IMG/VR virus record: IMGVR_UViG_3300028738_000008
Direction: 5' to 3' (one strand)
DNA from: a virus
Taxonomy: Duplodnaviria > Caudoviricetes
Length of the DNA stretch: 64,000 bases
Position numbers and translations under genes: made by a program. The notes beneath the pieces were generated by a model, which was given only the letters and a program-made list of their open reading frames with translations, was not told where the DNA came from and made no database searches. Below are positions 18,887 through 41,035 of the stretch, in pieces (position 1 is the first letter of the stretch; each line of letters starts with the position of its first letter).

Positions 18887-18911
18887 TTTTTCAAAATATT
18901 TTGTATTTATA

Positions 18912-18942
18912 TTTGCAAGTTACAAATTAATGATTACCTTTG
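18912..18942 (+). promoter_or_regulatory. Bacteroidota-type promoter of tRNA operon 1
   Basis: TTTG-N19-TACCTTTG; TATTTATA at 18904-18911. Confidence 0.8.
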
Positions 18943-18971
18943 TACCGAAATAAAATTTTAAGAAATATACA

Positions 18972-19043
18972 ATGAGAACAATTTTTAACATAGTACCGCA
19001 GCATCAACCACAACCCTTGAAGTATCTTCAATCGAATGGCTGA
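18972..19043 (+). CDS. Leader peptide 1 (MRTIFNIVPQHQPQPLKYLQSNG)
   Basis: PQHQPQP run upstream of a terminator and Pro/His/Gln tRNAs. Confidence 0.85.
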   Translation: MRTIFNIVPQHQPQPLKYLQSNG

Positions 19044-19071
19044 ACTATGTAAAAAATAAACATACATAATG

Positions 19072-19108
19072 ATCCCCTTTAATTGAAAGATTAAAGGGGA
19101 TTTTTTTT
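19072..19108 (+). terminator. Attenuator terminator 1
   Basis: atcccctttaat-tgaaag-attaaaggggat plus T-tract. Confidence 0.9.
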
Positions 19109-19110
19109 AT

Positions 19111-19195
19111 CTAGGCGTAGCCCTGTAGTTGGTAGCAGTCCTGATTTGGGATCAGGCGTGGTAACACCTCGTGAGTTCGACCCTCACCGCTTAGA
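19111..19195 (+). tRNA. trnP: tRNA-Pro(TGG), long variable arm
   Basis: cctga-tttggga-tcagg; C1-G72, A73; 14-nt variable region. Confidence 0.85.
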
Positions 19196-19205
19196 CAAAA
19201 TTTAT

Positions 19206-22437: not shown

Positions 22438-22485
22438 TAAAATAGTGAATTATTTTAAACTTTTTTGATTTTTTTACTATTTATA

Positions 22486-22516
22486 TTTGCAGGTATCAAA
22501 AATTGTATTACCTTTG
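22486..22516 (+). promoter_or_regulatory. Promoter of tRNA operon 2
   Basis: TTTG-N19-TACCTTTG; near-copy of the operon 1 promoter. Confidence 0.8.
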
Positions 22517-22546
22517 TACCGAAATTAATATTTAAGAATAGAAACA

Positions 22547-22639
22547 ATGAGAAATTTACTTAACATAGAATTATTGGCAGTGGATCAGGTCAACCTCCTA
22601 TTATGGGCGGATGAAGATAGATTATGCCATGCTGGTTAA
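22547..22639 (+). CDS. Leader peptide 2 (MRNLLNIELLAVDQVNLLLWADEDRLCHAG)
   Basis: 19 of 30 residues are L/D/E/V/A/W. Confidence 0.85.
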   Translation: MRNLLNIELLAVDQVNLLLWADEDRLCHAG

Positions 22640-22664
22640 GTAGAGTTTAAGAATATTTTAAACT

Positions 22665-22695
22665 AAACCCCCAGCATACGTGTTGGGGGTTTTTT
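22665..22695 (+). terminator. Attenuator terminator 2
   Basis: aaacccccagca-tacg-tgttgggggttt plus T-tract. Confidence 0.9.
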
Positions 22696-22739
22696 GTTTA
22701 TGTACGTTATTTGACATGTTGGGTTATAAAATTAAAATT

Positions 22740-23696: not shown

Positions 23697-23786
23697 ACGT
23701 CTATGTCCGAGTGGCTTAAGGAACTGGTCTCCAAAACCAGCGTGGGTGACACCATATCCAAGGTTCGAATCCTTGTTGGCGTGCCA
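23697..23786 (+). tRNA. trnW: tRNA-Trp(CCA) with class II (Ser-like) body
   Basis: ctggt-ctccaaa-accag; 18-nt variable region; G73; CCA encoded. Confidence 0.8.
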
Positions 23787-28463: not shown

Positions 28464-28510
28464 ATTAATTTGAAGAATTTAAACTTTTTTATAAAAAATC
28501 ACTATTTATA

Positions 28511-28542
28511 CTTGCAGATGTAATTTATTTGAATTACTTTTG
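28511..28542 (+). promoter_or_regulatory. Promoter of tRNA operon 3
   Basis: CTTG-N20-TACTTTTG; TATTTATA at 28503-28510. Confidence 0.75.
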
Positions 28543-28571
28543 CACCAGTTAAAAACAATTAAAAAATAGAA

Positions 28572-28649
28572 ATGATGAATGCAACACTTAAATACGGAAA
28601 GACTACTAAATCTTATAAAAAATATAAGATGAAGAAGGACTGTGTGTAA
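28572..28649 (+). CDS. Leader peptide 3 (MMNATLKYGKTTKSYKKYKMKKDCV)
   Basis: 8 Lys and 3 Tyr in 25 residues. Confidence 0.85.
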   Translation: MMNATLKYGKTTKSYKKYKMKKDCV

Positions 28650-28671
28650 GTGAACTATATATAATATATTC

Positions 28672-28706
28672 AAAAACCCAGTCTTAATTTAAGTCTGGGT
28701 TTTTTT
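28672..28706 (+). terminator. Attenuator terminator 3
   Basis: aaaaacccag-t-ctta-att-taag-t-ctgggttttt plus T-tract. Confidence 0.85.
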
Positions 28707-28720
28707 ATGTTAAAAAATTC

Positions 28721-28792
28721 GCTCCTATAGCTTAATGGTAAAGCCTTCGACCTTTAATCGAATGACCCCTGAATCAGTATCAGGTGGGAGCA
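28721..28792 (+). tRNA. trnK: tRNA-Lys(TTT), atypical T-loop
   Basis: ttcga-cctttaa-tcgaa; T-loop atcagta. Confidence 0.7.
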
Positions 28793-28808
28793 CAGAGTAT
28801 AGTAAGTC

Positions 28809-28879
28809 GCTTCTATAGCTCAATGGTAGAGCTTGTAACTTTTAATTATAAGACCTCGGTTCGATTCCGAGTAGGAGCA
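28809..28879 (+). tRNA. trnK: tRNA-Lys(TTT)
   Basis: tgtaa-cttttaa-ttata. Confidence 0.9.
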
Positions 28880-28889
28880 CAAAATTATT

Positions 28890-28962
28890 GCCTTCGTAGC
28901 TTAATCGGGAAAGCTGTACACTCTTAATGTAAGGAGCGTGAGTTCGATCCTCACCGAGGGCA
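28890..28962 (+). tRNA. trnK: tRNA-Lys(CTT)
   Basis: Loop ctcttaa. Confidence 0.9.
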
Positions 28963-28969
28963 CAAATAT

Positions 28970-29051
28970 GGGATGGATGGTAAGCAGGCGAAATCAGCGG
29001 ATTGTAAACCCGTCGCTACCAGCTATTTAGGTTCGAATCCTAACCGTCCCA
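28970..29051 (+). tRNA. trnY: tRNA-Tyr(GTA)
   Basis: Loop ttgtaaa; long variable arm. Confidence 0.85.
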
Positions 29052-29110
29052 CGTGAGAGACCGTTATAATTTCAAAGTCCACTTGGTATCGGAAGCGTAG
29101 AAATTAATTT

Positions 29111-29194
29111 GGGGATGTATGCAAATGGTTGAAGCAAGCGGTCTGTAAAACCGTGACGTAAGAGACGATGCTGGTTCGAATCCAGCCAGCCCCA
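29111..29194 (+). tRNA. trnY: tRNA-Tyr(GTA)
   Basis: gcggt-ctgtaaa-accgt; long variable arm. Confidence 0.9.
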
Positions 29195-29256
29195 CTTGGT
29201 AGACTGTTATAATTTCATAGAACCCATTAAGTGTGGTATGCGTGGAAATTAAAAAT

Positions 29257-29337
29257 GGCGGCAGACGGGTAATGGAAATCCTAGGGGCATGCAATCCTGA
29301 GTCACAGACTATGTTGGTTCGAATCCAACCGTCGCCA
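29257..29337 (+). tRNA. tRNA-like gene, anticodon undetermined (8-nt loop gcatgcaa)
   Basis: Good acceptor and T-arm (gttgg-ttcgaat-ccaac), variable hairpin, no U33. Confidence 0.55.
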
Positions 29338-29361
29338 CAATGAATTAAAAATTAATTAGAT

Positions 29362-38550: not shown

Positions 38551-39222
38551 ATGATGAAAGATCAAATTATCGAATTACGAAAATTGGGAAATTCGTACAA
38601 CGAAATAGTAAGTAAACTTGGTTGTACAAAGTCAAATGTCTCATATCATTGTGGCAAATTAGGAATTAATTTACATAATGATAATCCGAAAAAAATAAGT
38701 GAACAAATCGTAGAGTCAATAAGAAACGATAAAATTTCGTTGTCGTCTAAAGAGATTGCTTTAAAATATAATGTTAGCGTAAGTACAGTGAATAAATTTA
38801 CAAAGATGAAGTCAAGGTCTTTAGATATAAAACCTGAAAGTAGCGTATGTTTAAATTGTGGTAAAGAAACACCGTATAGAAAAGAGAAACGATTTTGTAG
38901 CAATCAATGCGGTGCTCAATATATACACAAATTGGCTTATAAAGATTTTTTAGAAAATAACGAAAAATATTGTGTTGGAAATTACACAGCTAAAAATTTT
39001 AAGGACTTTATTGTAGCTGAGCAAAATGATAAATGCTTGATATGTGGAATGTCAGCAATTTGGGAAAACAAAATATTAGTTTTCGTTTTAGATCACATTG
39101 ACGGTAATGCTTCAAATAACAAAAGAGAAAATTTAAGATTAATTTGTCCTAATTGCGATTCGCAAACAAGCACATTTAAATCGAAAACGAAGGTTTCAAT
39201 GAGAAGAAATTATAATAAATAA
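38551..39222 (+). mobile_element. Free-standing HNH homing endonuclease with N-terminal HTH
   Basis: CLICG...LDHIDGNASNNKRENLRLICPNC; located within the tRNA array. Confidence 0.88.
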
Positions 39223-39227
39223 TATAT

Positions 39228-39310
39228 GGAAGGTAGCATGCAGTGGTGCATAAGTGGCTTTGAACACCATGCCGATGTAAAAGTCGAGAGTTCGATTCTT
39301 TTACCTTCCG
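39228..39310 (+). tRNA. trnS: tRNA-Ser(TGA)
   Basis: Loop tttgaac; long variable arm; G73. Confidence 0.85.
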
Positions 39311-40089: not shown

Positions 40090-40175
40090 GCAGTAATCGC
40101 ATAGTTGGTCGATTGCGCCAGCCTTCCAAGCTGGAAAGAGAAATCACGGCGAGGGTTCGAATCCCTCTTACTGCT
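40090..40175 (+). tRNA. trnG: tRNA-Gly(TCC), extended variable region
   Basis: ccagc-cttccaa-gctgg; 16-nt variable region. Confidence 0.85.
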
Positions 40176-40191
40176 CAATAAATTGTTAATA

Positions 40192-40931: not shown

Positions 40932-41021
40932 TGCGAGTTAGAGAAGTCAGGCCTATCTCACCAGTCTCATAAGCTGGAGTACCGTTTAAAAGTATCGTTG
41001 GTTCGAATCCAGCACTCGCTT
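40932..41021 (+). tRNA. trnM: tRNA-Met(CAT), initiator-like 1:72 mismatch, long variable arm
   Basis: ccagt-ctcataa-gctgg; T1:T72. Confidence 0.75.
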
Positions 41022-41035
41022 CATTAAAAACACAC

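What the first reader, a model, noticed from the sequence alone, without database searches (positions are those of the whole stretch)
28572..28706. Attenuator 3: Lys/Tyr sensor
KYGKTTKSYKKYKMKK uses AAA x4, AAG x4 and both Tyr codons, matching Lys(TTT) x2, Lys(CTT) and Tyr(GTA) x2. aggactg (28636-28642) pairs with cagtctt (28679-28685) of the terminator 5' arm. tRNA-Lys is the established target of PrrC-type anticodon nucleases, so a separate Lys operon fits a counter-defence role (inference).
Basis: partly seen in the sequence, partly recalled or inferred. Interest (0 to 1): 0.8.

Follow-up and report, generated by a model that had tools for sequence, protein, structure and literature searches.

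The report
Lys/Tyr leader-peptide switch gating phage tRNAs
A 25-codon mini-gene packed with lysine and tyrosine codons, followed by a switchable transcription stop, sits directly in front of a giant phage's lysine and tyrosine tRNA genes, so the phage probably makes these tRNAs only when ribosomes read those codons slowly; I found no paper that describes this control for tRNA genes.

Summary
ORF 28572-28649 has 8 Lys codons (AAA x4, AAG x4) and 3 Tyr codons in 24 residues. It is followed by an intrinsic terminator (28677-28706), and 14 nt later by tRNA-Lys x3 and tRNA-Tyr x2. A Bacteroidota-type promoter lies upstream, so the tRNAs can only be transcribed by reading through the terminator.

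It is one of four such units in the window. Each leader is enriched only in the amino acids of its own tRNA block.

At least 25 further distinct Lys/Tyr units exist in related IMG/VR giant phages. In these, an 8-nt segment in the 3' part of the leader ORF pairs with the terminator's 5' arm. That segment is read in two different frames, and it changes together with the terminator arm in three lineages, the window's included. In a more distant 425-kb phage Lys is grouped with Met/Arg and Tyr with six other amino acids, and the leaders follow.

The window's own antiterminator (AGGACTG/CAGTCTT) is weak taken alone (P about 0.1). It is credible through its position and these relatives.

Best reading: a trp/his-type ribosome-mediated attenuator that feeds back on tRNA supply. 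The anticodon-nuclease counter-defence idea is compatible but untested. This scan has noted the same design on other DNA. Seven literature searches found no published description.

The parts
28503..28542 (+). Promoter of Bacteroidota type: TATTTATACTTGCA (CTTG as the -33 element, 28511-28514), a 20-nt spacer, then TACTTTTG (-7 box, 28535-28542)
   Evidence: Direct reading. The same composite box precedes leaders 1 and 2. Relatives have TTTG-N19-20-TAnnTTTG 22-40 nt before the leader ATG. Function is inferred from the consensus.
28543..28571 (+). A-rich untranslated leader (68% A in the last 25 nt) without a Shine-Dalgarno motif
   Evidence: 0 of 34 long ORFs of the window have a Shine-Dalgarno motif. 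Their upstream 25 nt average 45% A, and the four leaders have 60-68% A.
28572..28649 (+). Leader ORF of 25 codons, MMNATLKYGKTTKSYKKYKMKKDCV, with 8 Lys and 3 Tyr codons
   Evidence: It is a homologue of the YYYGKKSYKK leaders of relatives.
28585..28652 (+). Leader hairpin (regions 1:2), -19.1 kcal/mol. Inner stem ATCTTATA (28610-28617) / TATAAGAT (28623-28630) lies over the S-Y-K-K-Y-K codons. Outer stems are 28585-28597 / 28640-28652. It sequesters 5 of the 7 nt of region 2 when no ribosome is present.
   Evidence: Minimum-free-energy folds. The inner stem aligns in register with TCTTATAAG/CTTATRRGA of relatives.
28636..28642 (+). Region 2 (5' strand of the antiterminator), AGGACTG, within the last codons of the leader and 5 nt before the stop codon
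   Evidence: Best duplex with the terminator 5' arm: -8.9 kcal/mol, P 0.08-0.12. It has the same relative position as region 2 of relatives.
28652..28671 (+). AT-rich spacer hairpin between the stop codon and the terminator. It lies inside the loop closed by the 2:3 helix.
   Evidence: Folds with a ribosome mask and of the antiterminator state.
28677..28706 (+). Intrinsic terminator: CCCAGTCTT / AAGTCTGGG with a central T.T mismatch, loop AATTT, T-run 28700-28706. The 5' arm (region 3) includes CAGTCTT 28679-28685.
   Evidence: -15.2 kcal/mol with the A/U extension. Identical in the closest relative.
28721..28792 (+). tRNA-Lys(UUU), atypical: C33 and T-loop AUCAGUA
   Evidence: Rfam tRNA match of 53.5 bits with alignment. 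ARAGORN does not call it.
28809..28880 (+). tRNA-Lys(UUU)
28890..28963 (+). tRNA-Lys(CUU)
28970..29052 (+). tRNA-Tyr(GUA)
29111..29195 (+). tRNA-Tyr(GUA), second copy
29362..29601 (+). 79-aa ORF of unknown function, probably the last gene of the unit. A terminator-like hairpin plus T-run follows at about 29628-29658.
   Evidence: No Pfam match. Conserved in the closest relative.

Best explanation
This is a ribosome-mediated (leader-peptide) transcription attenuator of the trp/his type. What it gates is unusual: a phage operon of three tRNA-Lys and two tRNA-Tyr genes.

Proposed mechanism:
1. Transcription starts at a host-type promoter (28503-28542), and the 25-codon leader is translated as it is made.
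2. If Lys and Tyr codons are decoded quickly, the ribosome runs to the end of the ORF and covers AGGACTG (28636-28642), or the leader hairpin re-forms behind it. The terminator 28677-28706 then folds and transcription stops 14 nt before the first tRNA.
3. If the ribosome lingers on the Lys/Tyr codons 7-17, it holds the leader hairpin open. AGGACTG pairs with CAGTCTT in the terminator's 5' arm before the 3' arm is made. The terminator cannot form, and RNA polymerase reads into the tRNA genes.
4. The product, tRNA, relieves the stall, so the circuit is a direct negative feedback on tRNA supply.

Shown here: the anatomy, the codon bias, conservation, and covariation of the pairing in relatives.
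Inferred: translation of the ORF, promoter use, stalling, and regulated read-through.
For: 1. Architecture. Promoter, A-rich leader, ORF and terminator are followed 14 nt later by the first tRNA, which leaves no room for another promoter. In relatives the gap is 7-12 nt in most units.

2. Codon bias. K+Y is 11/24, P 1.6e-5 or 0.002 depending on the null; 1 of 490 short ORFs reaches this.

3. Four units in the window. In the 4x4 table of leaders against tRNA sets, only the diagonal is enriched: 0.36, 0.66, 0.46 and 0.81, against proteome frequencies of 0.07, 0.32, 0.11 and 0.50.

4. Relatives. 12 further distinct Lys/Tyr units were found next to the ribonucleotide reductase gene. A pattern scan gave 22 units with tRNAs downstream. 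All have a core YYYGKKSYKK, a terminator, and then Lys/Tyr tRNAs.

5. The leader tracks the tRNA cargo.
- In a 425-kb relative, MKTIITIKRRTIKRMMRKMIIFSNQV precedes Met x3, Lys x3, Arg x2.
- In the same phage, MKTTSSTYHFASGRCSAGYPVAPTSDNPVTYVFE precedes Tyr, Thr, Pro, Ala, Ser, Cys and His tRNAs.
- LLQQLQLLQL precedes Gln and Leu tRNAs.
- In a blind test on 40 units, the mean cognate fraction is 0.331, against 0.217 +/- 0.019 in permutations; 0 of 20,000 permutations reach the observed value.

6. Antiterminator.
- GAATCGGG in the leader pairs with CCCGATTC of the terminator (8 bp, P <= 0.003).
- It is read as R/G-I-G in most units but as E-S-G in L019 and L061. The conservation is therefore at the RNA level, not the peptide level.
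- L080, L084 and the window have different terminator arms, each with its own matching segment.
- The terminator stems carry a central T.T or T.G, which region 2 replaces with an A-T pair.

7. Folding with a ribosome footprint. With the A site on codons 1-17, the 5' arm is paired with P about 0.9. With no ribosome, or with the A site on codons 19 to stop, P is 0.15-0.54. Energy order: leader hairpin -19.1, terminator state -19.2, antiterminator state -12.2 kcal/mol.

8. Translation context matches the phage's genes: no Shine-Dalgarno, A-rich upstream. Synonymous third-base variation occurs at Gly5 and the Lys codons among relatives.
Against: - There is no expression or read-through data. No RNA run holding this DNA was listed.
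- The window's own antiterminator has only 7 bp, one of them G-U, and is not significant alone (P 0.08-0.12).
- Three Lys codons and one Tyr codon (codons 18-22) lie so close to region 2 that a stall there would mask it rather than free it.
- The closest relative keeps the identical leader, Tyr codons included, but has no Tyr tRNAs behind it.
- For relatives, equilibrium folding does not by itself predict termination when the ribosome sits at the stop codon. Kinetics must be invoked.
- Attenuators 1 and 2 of the window also have weak or unclear antiterminators (P 0.39 and 0.30).
- Lys and Tyr codons are AT-rich and this DNA is AT-rich, which raises the chance level. That is reflected in the P of 0.002.
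Confidence: 0.77

Rival explanations
1. The same switch serves chiefly as a defence sensor. When a host anticodon nuclease or other tRNA-targeting immune effector destroys host tRNA-Lys or tRNA-Tyr, ribosomes stall on the leader and the phage turns on its own, possibly cleavage-resistant, tRNAs. It refines the purpose of the best explanation and does not compete with its mechanism.
For: - tRNA-Lys and tRNA-Tyr are the documented targets of PrrC, PARIS (AriB) and retron-Eco7 (PtuAB), and phage tRNA-Lys/Tyr rescue infection (PMC11555353 abstract; PMC11464382 abstract).
- The title of PMC10264068 says that phage tRNAs evade tRNA-targeting host defences through anticodon loop mutations (paper not read).
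- Lys and Tyr are kept together as a two-amino-acid unit in more than 25 related phages.
- One of the Lys(UUU) tRNAs has C33 in place of the usual U33, next to the wobble base.
- A Tad3-type anti-Thoeris gene lies 8 kb downstream.
Against: - Every tRNA block in the window has a leader. Together they cover essentially all amino acids, which fits general supply control.
- In the 425-kb relative Lys and Tyr are in different, larger units.
- The host and its defences are unknown.
- All cited defence systems are from E. coli.
Confidence: 0.25
2. The terminator is overcome by a phage or host factor, for example a timed antitermination protein, or is simply leaky. The small ORF's translation is not the sensor, and its composition has another cause.
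For: Antiterminators of units 1-3 in the window are weak by the shuffle test. Units 2 and 4 carry a conserved TTTGACATGTTGG...TAAAAT box after the terminator that could be a second promoter.
Against: - It does not explain why each leader is written in the amino acids of its own tRNA block, nor why that follows the cargo across phages.
- It does not explain the conserved, covarying complement to the terminator arm inside the ORF.
- Unit 3 has no room for a second promoter: 14 nt lie between the terminator and the first tRNA.
Confidence: 0.08
3. The ORF encodes a small basic peptide with a function of its own, with its own promoter and terminator. Its position before the tRNAs is incidental.
For: The peptide core FGTYYYGKKSYKK is well conserved among relatives.
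Against: - The window's peptide shares only KSYKK and the K/Y richness with them.
- The 3' half is read in different frames in L019 and L061, while the nucleotides GAATCGGG are kept.
- Analogous ORFs of quite different composition precede the other tRNA blocks.
- The tRNAs would lack any promoter.
Confidence: 0.04
4. Chance: an AT-rich intergenic stretch happens to be open for 25 codons and is rich in AAR/TAY codons, and a terminator of the upstream gene follows.
For: AT-rich DNA favours Lys and Tyr codons: 18.7% expected per sense codon from the local base composition. The 7-bp pairing is not significant alone.
Against: - P is 0.002 even against the local base composition.
- Four units in the window show diagonal-only enrichment.
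- More than 25 homologous units all lie in front of Lys/Tyr tRNAs, whereas the unrelated pattern matches in other contexts had no tRNA behind them.
- The promoter lies between the upstream gene and the terminator.
Confidence: 0.02

Closest known systems
Leader-peptide transcription attenuators of amino-acid operons in Proteobacteria: trpL, hisL, pheL, leuL, and the multivalent thrL and ilvL (general description: PMC1183508)
   Same: - Promoter, short translated ORF rich in control codons, and an intrinsic terminator.
- A leader hairpin (1:2), an antiterminator (2:3) and a terminator (3:4) that exclude one another.
- The stop codon lies next to region 2.
- The leader senses more than one amino acid, as thrL and ilvL do.
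   Different: - The regulated genes are tRNAs rather than biosynthetic enzymes, so the product acts directly on the sensor.
- The element is carried by a phage with Bacteroidota-type promoters and no Shine-Dalgarno.
- There is no sequence or covariance-model similarity to the Rfam leader families.
- The control codons are spread over codons 7-22 rather than forming a tight run.
pheST (pheM leader) attenuator of E. coli phenylalanyl-tRNA synthetase (from my own knowledge)
   Same: Leader-peptide attenuation is applied to a component of the translation apparatus rather than to amino-acid synthesis.
   Different: It controls a synthetase protein rather than tRNA genes, and it is chromosomal and senses a single amino acid.
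T-box riboswitches of Firmicutes
   Same: Transcription read-through is coupled to the state of a specific tRNA, through a choice between terminator and antiterminator.
   Different: A T-box binds uncharged tRNA directly and needs no translation. No T-box match was found here. Here a translated ORF is the sensor.
tRNA regions of T5-like phages that counter tRNA-cleaving defences (PMC11555353, PMC11464382)
   Same: Phage-encoded tRNA-Lys and tRNA-Tyr supplement or replace host tRNAs.
   Different: In T5, tRNA-Tyr is reported as highly expressed (abstract; a section heading of the paper says from a strong promoter). No codon-sensing leader is described there.
Earlier notes of this scan on other phage DNA (e1-3450872, e1-3634853 and others)
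   Same: A Lys/Tyr-rich leader plus a terminator in front of Lys/Tyr tRNA arrays. The same design was noted in at least 55-64 other genomes.
   Different: Those are unpublished AI notes. The window's unit is a divergent member with a different terminator arm and a different region 2.

Membership tests
Ribosome-mediated (leader-peptide) transcription attenuator | A short ORF with a start codon in a translatable context, between a promoter and the regulated genes | tested here: met
   ORF 28572-28649 starts 29 nt after the -7 box. Its A-rich upstream region resembles that of the phage's genes. Translation itself was not shown.
Ribosome-mediated (leader-peptide) transcription attenuator | Control codons cognate to the regulated product are over-represented in the leader | tested here: met
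   K+Y 11/24, P 1.6e-5 or 0.002; only the diagonal is enriched in the 4x4 table; permutation test over 40 units, P <= 5e-5.
Ribosome-mediated (leader-peptide) transcription attenuator | An intrinsic terminator between the leader ORF and the regulated genes, with no other promoter in between | tested here: met
   Hairpin 28677-28699 plus seven T; the first tRNA starts 14 nt later.
Ribosome-mediated (leader-peptide) transcription attenuator | An antiterminator helix that uses the terminator's 5' arm (window's own sequence) | tested here: inconclusive
   AGGACTG/CAGTCTT: 7 bp, -8.9 kcal/mol, the best available partner, but P is 0.08-0.12 against shuffles.
Ribosome-mediated (leader-peptide) transcription attenuator | An antiterminator helix conserved and covarying in homologous units | tested here: met
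   GAATCGGG/CCCGATTC, P <= 0.003, read in two frames. L080, L084 and the window have changed both strands together. Other unit types show P 0.002-0.04.
Ribosome-mediated (leader-peptide) transcription attenuator | A leader hairpin (1:2) over the control codons that sequesters region 2 when no ribosome stalls | tested here: met
   Hairpin 28585-28652, -19.1 kcal/mol. The inner stem is in register with that of relatives. This rests on prediction only.
Ribosome-mediated (leader-peptide) transcription attenuator | Read-through rises when the cognate charged tRNA is scarce | not testable with these tools
   No RNA run was listed. A reporter or in vitro assay is needed.
Classical amino-acid operon attenuators (trp, his, leu, thr, ilv, phe) | The regulated genes encode amino-acid biosynthesis enzymes | tested here: not met
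   Five tRNA genes and a 79-aa ORF without a Pfam match lie downstream.
Rfam leader families (His_leader, Trp_leader, Thr_leader, Leu_leader and the like) | A match to the family covariance model | tested here: not met
   cmscan of 28540-29800 at E <= 1 lists only tRNA and chance matches. The gathering-score scan of the whole window lists only tRNAs.
T-box riboswitch | Specifier loop and T-box motif (Rfam T-box model) | tested here: not met
   No match.
Phage tRNAs that evade anticodon nucleases | The phage carries the isoacceptor that the nuclease targets | tested here: met
   tRNA-Lys(UUU) x2, Lys(CUU), Tyr(GUA) x2.
Phage tRNAs that evade anticodon nucleases | Anticodon-loop differences from the host tRNA that block cleavage, and rescue of infection | not testable with these tools
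   The host is unknown. One Lys(UUU) tRNA has C33, but what that does is unknown.

The most novel reading that the evidence does not exclude
The Lys/Tyr unit is a built-in alarm for tRNA-directed immunity. Cleavage of host tRNA-Lys or tRNA-Tyr by a defence nuclease stalls ribosomes on the leader and switches on a dedicated set of phage tRNAs, including an atypical Lys(UUU) tRNA with C33 that may resist cleavage. The phage would then pay for counter-defence only when attacked.
Probability: 0.25. Interest if true: 0.92.

Novelty: new variant of a known kind. Interest (0 to 1): 0.8.

Why it matters
Why phages carry tRNAs, and how those tRNAs are controlled, is a long-standing question. A codon-sensing switch in front of the tRNA genes would mean that giant phages measure decoding speed for particular codons and top up exactly those tRNAs. 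That reading fits codon-supply compensation and also fits escape from tRNA-cleaving defences, and it makes both directly testable with a simple reporter. It would also extend leader-peptide attenuation to non-coding RNA genes, to phages, and to Bacteroidota-type expression signals. The mini-genes could serve as portable sensors of the availability of specific tRNAs.

Tried and rejected
- GenBank phages (blastn): only tRNA-Tyr-sized matches to Bacillus and Enterococcus phages, and no relative of the leader.
- Whole genome of the window: not held.
- The 79-aa ORF as an anchor: found only the one close relative.
- RNA evidence: 24 peat-metagenome DNA runs hold the stretch, but no RNA run was listed. 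Read-through could therefore not be observed, and read laying was not used.
- Metagenome scan for intermediates of the window's own leader variant: one true hit, a 328-kb contig with the identical leader and no Tyr tRNA called behind it. The other 17 were unrelated chance matches. No covariation data exist within the window's own lineage.
- Formal pair counting on alignment A2: not run. The window, L080 and L084 are out of register with the main group in regions 2 and 3, so per-sequence duplex searches with shuffles and a cross matrix were used instead.
- Equilibrium folding with a ribosome at the stop codon in relatives: it predicts antiterminator rather than terminator, so the model is too crude for that state.
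- T-box, known Rfam leaders and chance ORF: considered and rejected.
- Seven literature searches: no description of leader-peptide attenuation of tRNA genes.

Full report
**What is there.**
- The window is AT-rich (about 34% GC) and phage-like.
- It carries 35 tRNA genes, all on the + strand and grouped in blocks by amino acid.
- It also carries a ribonucleotide reductase, an R2K ATP-grasp protein, a BspA-type repeat protein and a Tad3-type anti-Thoeris protein.
- Its relatives are IMG/VR viral contigs of 150-425 kb, and the DNA occurs in peat metagenomes.

**Anatomy at the finding's coordinates.**
- A promoter-like box lies at 28503-28542: CTTG, 20 nt, TACTTTTG. This is the Bacteroidota TTTG / TAnnTTTG pattern.
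- A 29-nt A-rich leader follows.
- ORF 28572-28649 encodes MMNATLKYGKTTKSYKKYKMKKDCV.
- An AT-rich hairpin follows the ORF.
- An intrinsic terminator lies at 28677-28706.
- 14 nt later come tRNA-Lys(UUU) 28721 (found by Rfam only), Lys(UUU) 28809, Lys(CUU) 28890, Tyr(GUA) 28970 and Tyr(GUA) 29111.

**Is it more than chance?**
- Lys plus Tyr make up 11 of 24 residues after the initiator.
- Against the window's own long proteins (10.9% K+Y) the binomial P is 1.6e-5. Against the local base composition, which favours AAR and TAY codons, P is 0.002.
- Of 490 short ORFs in all six frames, one reaches this fraction, which I take to be the leader itself.
- The 7-bp pairing AGGACTG/CAGTCTT is the best complement to the terminator's 5' arm anywhere in the leader (-8.9 kcal/mol). 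It is not significant alone: P is 0.11-0.12 against dinucleotide shuffles, and 0.08 when only the last 33 nt are considered.

**The unit is one of four in the window.** The same layout occurs at three other places:
- 18904-19109: leader MRTIFNIVPQHQPQPLKYLQSNG, before Pro x3, His x2, Gln x2.
- 22478-22697: leader MRNLLNIELLAVDQVNLLLWADEDRLCHAG, before Asp, Val, Leu, Ala and Trp tRNAs.
- 37850-38186: a leader written mostly in S, I, G, N, T, R, M, F and C, before Cys, Phe, Gly, Met, Ile, Asn, Thr, Arg and Ser tRNAs.

In the 4x4 table of leaders against tRNA sets, only the diagonal exceeds the proteome frequency, and all twelve off-diagonal cells lie below it. The promoter boxes of units 1-3 are nearly identical.

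**Relatives.** The nearest relative is IMGVR_UViG_3300025140_000001 (neighbouring proteins 92-95% identical). It has the identical leader and terminator.

A search anchored on the ribonucleotide reductase gene, which lies 2.5 kb downstream, returned 80 loci. Twelve further distinct Lys/Tyr units were found in them. A pattern scan for the KSYKK core plus its hairpin partner gave 36 distinct matches:
- 22 had a leader ORF, a terminator and Lys/Tyr tRNAs behind them.
- The unrelated matches in other contexts had no tRNA behind them.

The family core is YYYGKKSYKK. The window's leader keeps KSYKK and the K/Y richness but is otherwise rewritten. In most units the terminator ends 7-12 nt before the first tRNA. 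Relatives also have TTTG-N19-20-TAnnTTTG promoters 22-40 nt before the ATG.

**The leader follows the cargo.**
- In a 425-kb relative (97% complete), Lys is grouped with Met and Arg behind MKTIITIKRRTIKRMMRKMIIFSNQV.
- In the same phage, Tyr is grouped with Thr, Pro, Ala, Ser, Cys and His behind MKTTSSTYHFASGRCSAGYPVAPTSDNPVTYVFE.
- A Gln/Leu block there is preceded by ...LLQQLQLLQL....
- I ran a deliberately blind test: the ORF nearest the terminator was taken without regard to composition, on 40 units after removal of near-duplicates. The mean cognate fraction was 0.331, against 0.217 +/- 0.019 when tRNA sets were permuted. None of 20,000 permutations reached the observed value.
- Caveat: related units remain in that set, so the P value is not a count of independent events.

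**The RNA switch.**
- In the main Lys/Tyr group, GAATCGGG in the 3' part of the ORF is a perfect complement of the terminator's 5' arm CCCGATTC (-13 kcal/mol, P <= 0.003).
- It is translated as R/G-I-G in most units but as E-S-G in L019 and L061. The nucleotides are conserved, not the peptide.
- Three lineages have different terminator arms, each with its own matching segment at the corresponding place:
  - L080: GAAGATCGG with CCCTGATCTT.
  - L084: CTGGATCAGG with CCTGATTCAG.
  - The window: AGGACTG with CAGTCTT.
- In a cross matrix, the window's leader pairs best with its own arm (-8.9, against -4.2 to -7.5 for the other arms). No other leader pairs as well with the window's arm (-6.3 to -7.1).
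- The terminator stems have a central T.T or T.G in all but one unit examined (L139, whose 3' arm is the perfect complement), and region 2 replaces it by A-T. Loops vary freely, while the doubly constrained 5' arm is nearly invariant.
- The control codons S-Y-K lie in the 5' strand of a hairpin (TCTTATAAG/CTTATRRGA). In the window this is ATCTTATA/TATAAGAT, 28610-28630, aligned in register.
- Units of other amino-acid classes in relatives show the same placement of region 2, within the last ten codons, with P 0.002-0.04.

**Model check for the window.**
- I folded the nascent RNA up to the terminator loop with a 30-nt ribosome footprint held single-stranded.
- With the A site on codons 1-17, which include five Lys and two Tyr codons, the 5' arm is paired with AGGACTG (P about 0.9).
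- With no ribosome, or with the A site on codons 19 to stop, it is mostly free (0.15-0.54).
- Energies are ordered as in classical attenuators: leader hairpin -19.1, terminator state -19.2, antiterminator state -12.2 kcal/mol.
- These are predictions, not measurements.
- For relatives, whose ORF continues about ten codons past region 2, equilibrium folding does not settle what happens with the ribosome at the stop codon.

**Translation context.** None of 34 long ORFs in the window has a Shine-Dalgarno motif, and their upstream 25 nt average 45% A. The four leaders have 60-68% A. Among relatives the Gly5 codon varies synonymously (GGA/GGT/GGC), and Lys codons swap between AAA and AAG. This fits selection on a translated frame.

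**Points against, or open.**
- No RNA data could be found.
- The window's antiterminator is short.
- Codons 18-22 (one Tyr, three Lys) are too close to region 2 to act productively in the model.
- The nearest relative has lost the two Tyr tRNAs: a 227-aa ORF on the opposite strand sits in their place. It keeps the Tyr codons in an identical leader. I read this as a recent event, but it is a mismatch.
- Units 2 and 4 have a conserved TTTGACATGTTGG...TAAAAT box after the terminator that might be a bypass promoter. Unit 3 has no such box.

**The counter-defence inference.**
- tRNA-Lys is cleaved by PARIS, and a T5 tRNA-Lys variant restores infection (PMC11464382).
- Retron-Eco7 effectors degrade tRNA-Tyr. 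T5's tRNA-Tyr protects, and phage tRNA-Lys counters PrrC170 (PMC11555353).
- A stall-sensing leader would respond to such attacks, and Lys plus Tyr form a dedicated unit in this phage group.
- However, all tRNA blocks here carry leaders, Lys and Tyr are separated in a distant relative, and nothing is known of the host.
- I therefore treat counter-defence as a possible use of the switch (about 0.25), not as shown.

**Comparison with what is known.**
- In mechanism, this is a leader-peptide attenuator of the trp/his/thr/ilv kind (general description in PMC1183508).
- It is not a member of any Rfam leader family, nor a T-box.
- Its cargo, tRNA genes, differs from every described case that I know of or could find in seven literature searches.
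- This scan has noted the same design, Lys/Tyr cassettes included, on other phage DNA in at least 55-64 genomes. Those are unchecked AI notes, and I tested the claims here independently.

**Verdict.** The counter-defence purpose is untested. This is a new variant of a known kind of control.

Noticed in passing
window 28721-28792 (also L012 1501-1572): The first tRNA-Lys(UUU) of the operon is atypical. It has C33 instead of U33 and a T-loop AUCAGUA without the usual TTC. ARAGORN misses it, while Rfam scores it 53.5 bits. It matches Rfam at the same score in the closest relative. It might be a decoy, a nuclease-resistant variant or a decaying copy.
   Followed up: partly
window 29053-29110 and 29196-29262: A spacer of about 55 nt, 80% identical between its two copies, follows each of the two tRNA-Tyr genes. 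This suggests a tandem duplication of a tRNA-Tyr plus spacer unit. The role of the spacer is unknown.
   Followed up: partly
window 22710-22738 and 38214-38240; L001 about 830-860: An exact shared box TTTGACATGTTGG followed by TAAAAT (sigma-70-like, 11 of 12) lies between the terminator and the first tRNA of units 2 and 4, and in the closest relative. It is absent from units 1 and 3. It could be a second promoter that bypasses attenuation, or a processing signal.
   Followed up: partly
window 29698-29769 and 30158-30487: An amber-suppressor tRNA (anticodon CUA) lies after the operon's terminator. The ORF downstream matches Pfam PTH2 (peptidyl-tRNA hydrolase, 24 bits, E 4.8e-5) when an early in-frame TAG is read through, as earlier notes of the scan suggested.
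   Followed up: partly
L012 1976-2659 (- strand): In the closest relative, a 227-aa ORF on the opposite strand occupies the place of the two tRNA-Tyr genes. It is Cys-rich and has only a weak DUF7836 match. It may be a mobile insertion that removed them.
   Followed up: partly
window 36801-37532: This ORF matches Pfam Tad3, a type I Thoeris inhibitor (72 bits). It is an anti-defence gene inside the tRNA region.
   Followed up: no
L031 3954-4087, and likewise L099, L101, L107, L129, L142: In several relatives, 130-200 nt with repeated GCATAAAAACGCATA-like motifs lie between the Lys/Tyr terminator and the first tRNA. This could be an added regulatory or promoter element that the window lacks.
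   Followed up: no
window 39228-39310: A tRNA-like sequence with an acceptor-like pairing GGAAGGT/ACCTTCC and a TTCGATTC T-loop-like motif was called neither by ARAGORN nor by Rfam at gathering score.
   Followed up: no
window 19111-19196, 23697-23786, 38238-38323, 40090-40176, 40932-41022: Several tRNAs that normally have short variable arms (Pro, Trp, Cys, Gly, Met) are 86-91 nt long by ARAGORN. They may carry insertions or introns.
   Followed up: no
window 38551-39222: An HNH / endonuclease VII-like ORF with helix-turn-helix motifs lies between tRNA-Cys and the next tRNAs, in the manner of a homing endonuclease within the tRNA array.
   Followed up: no
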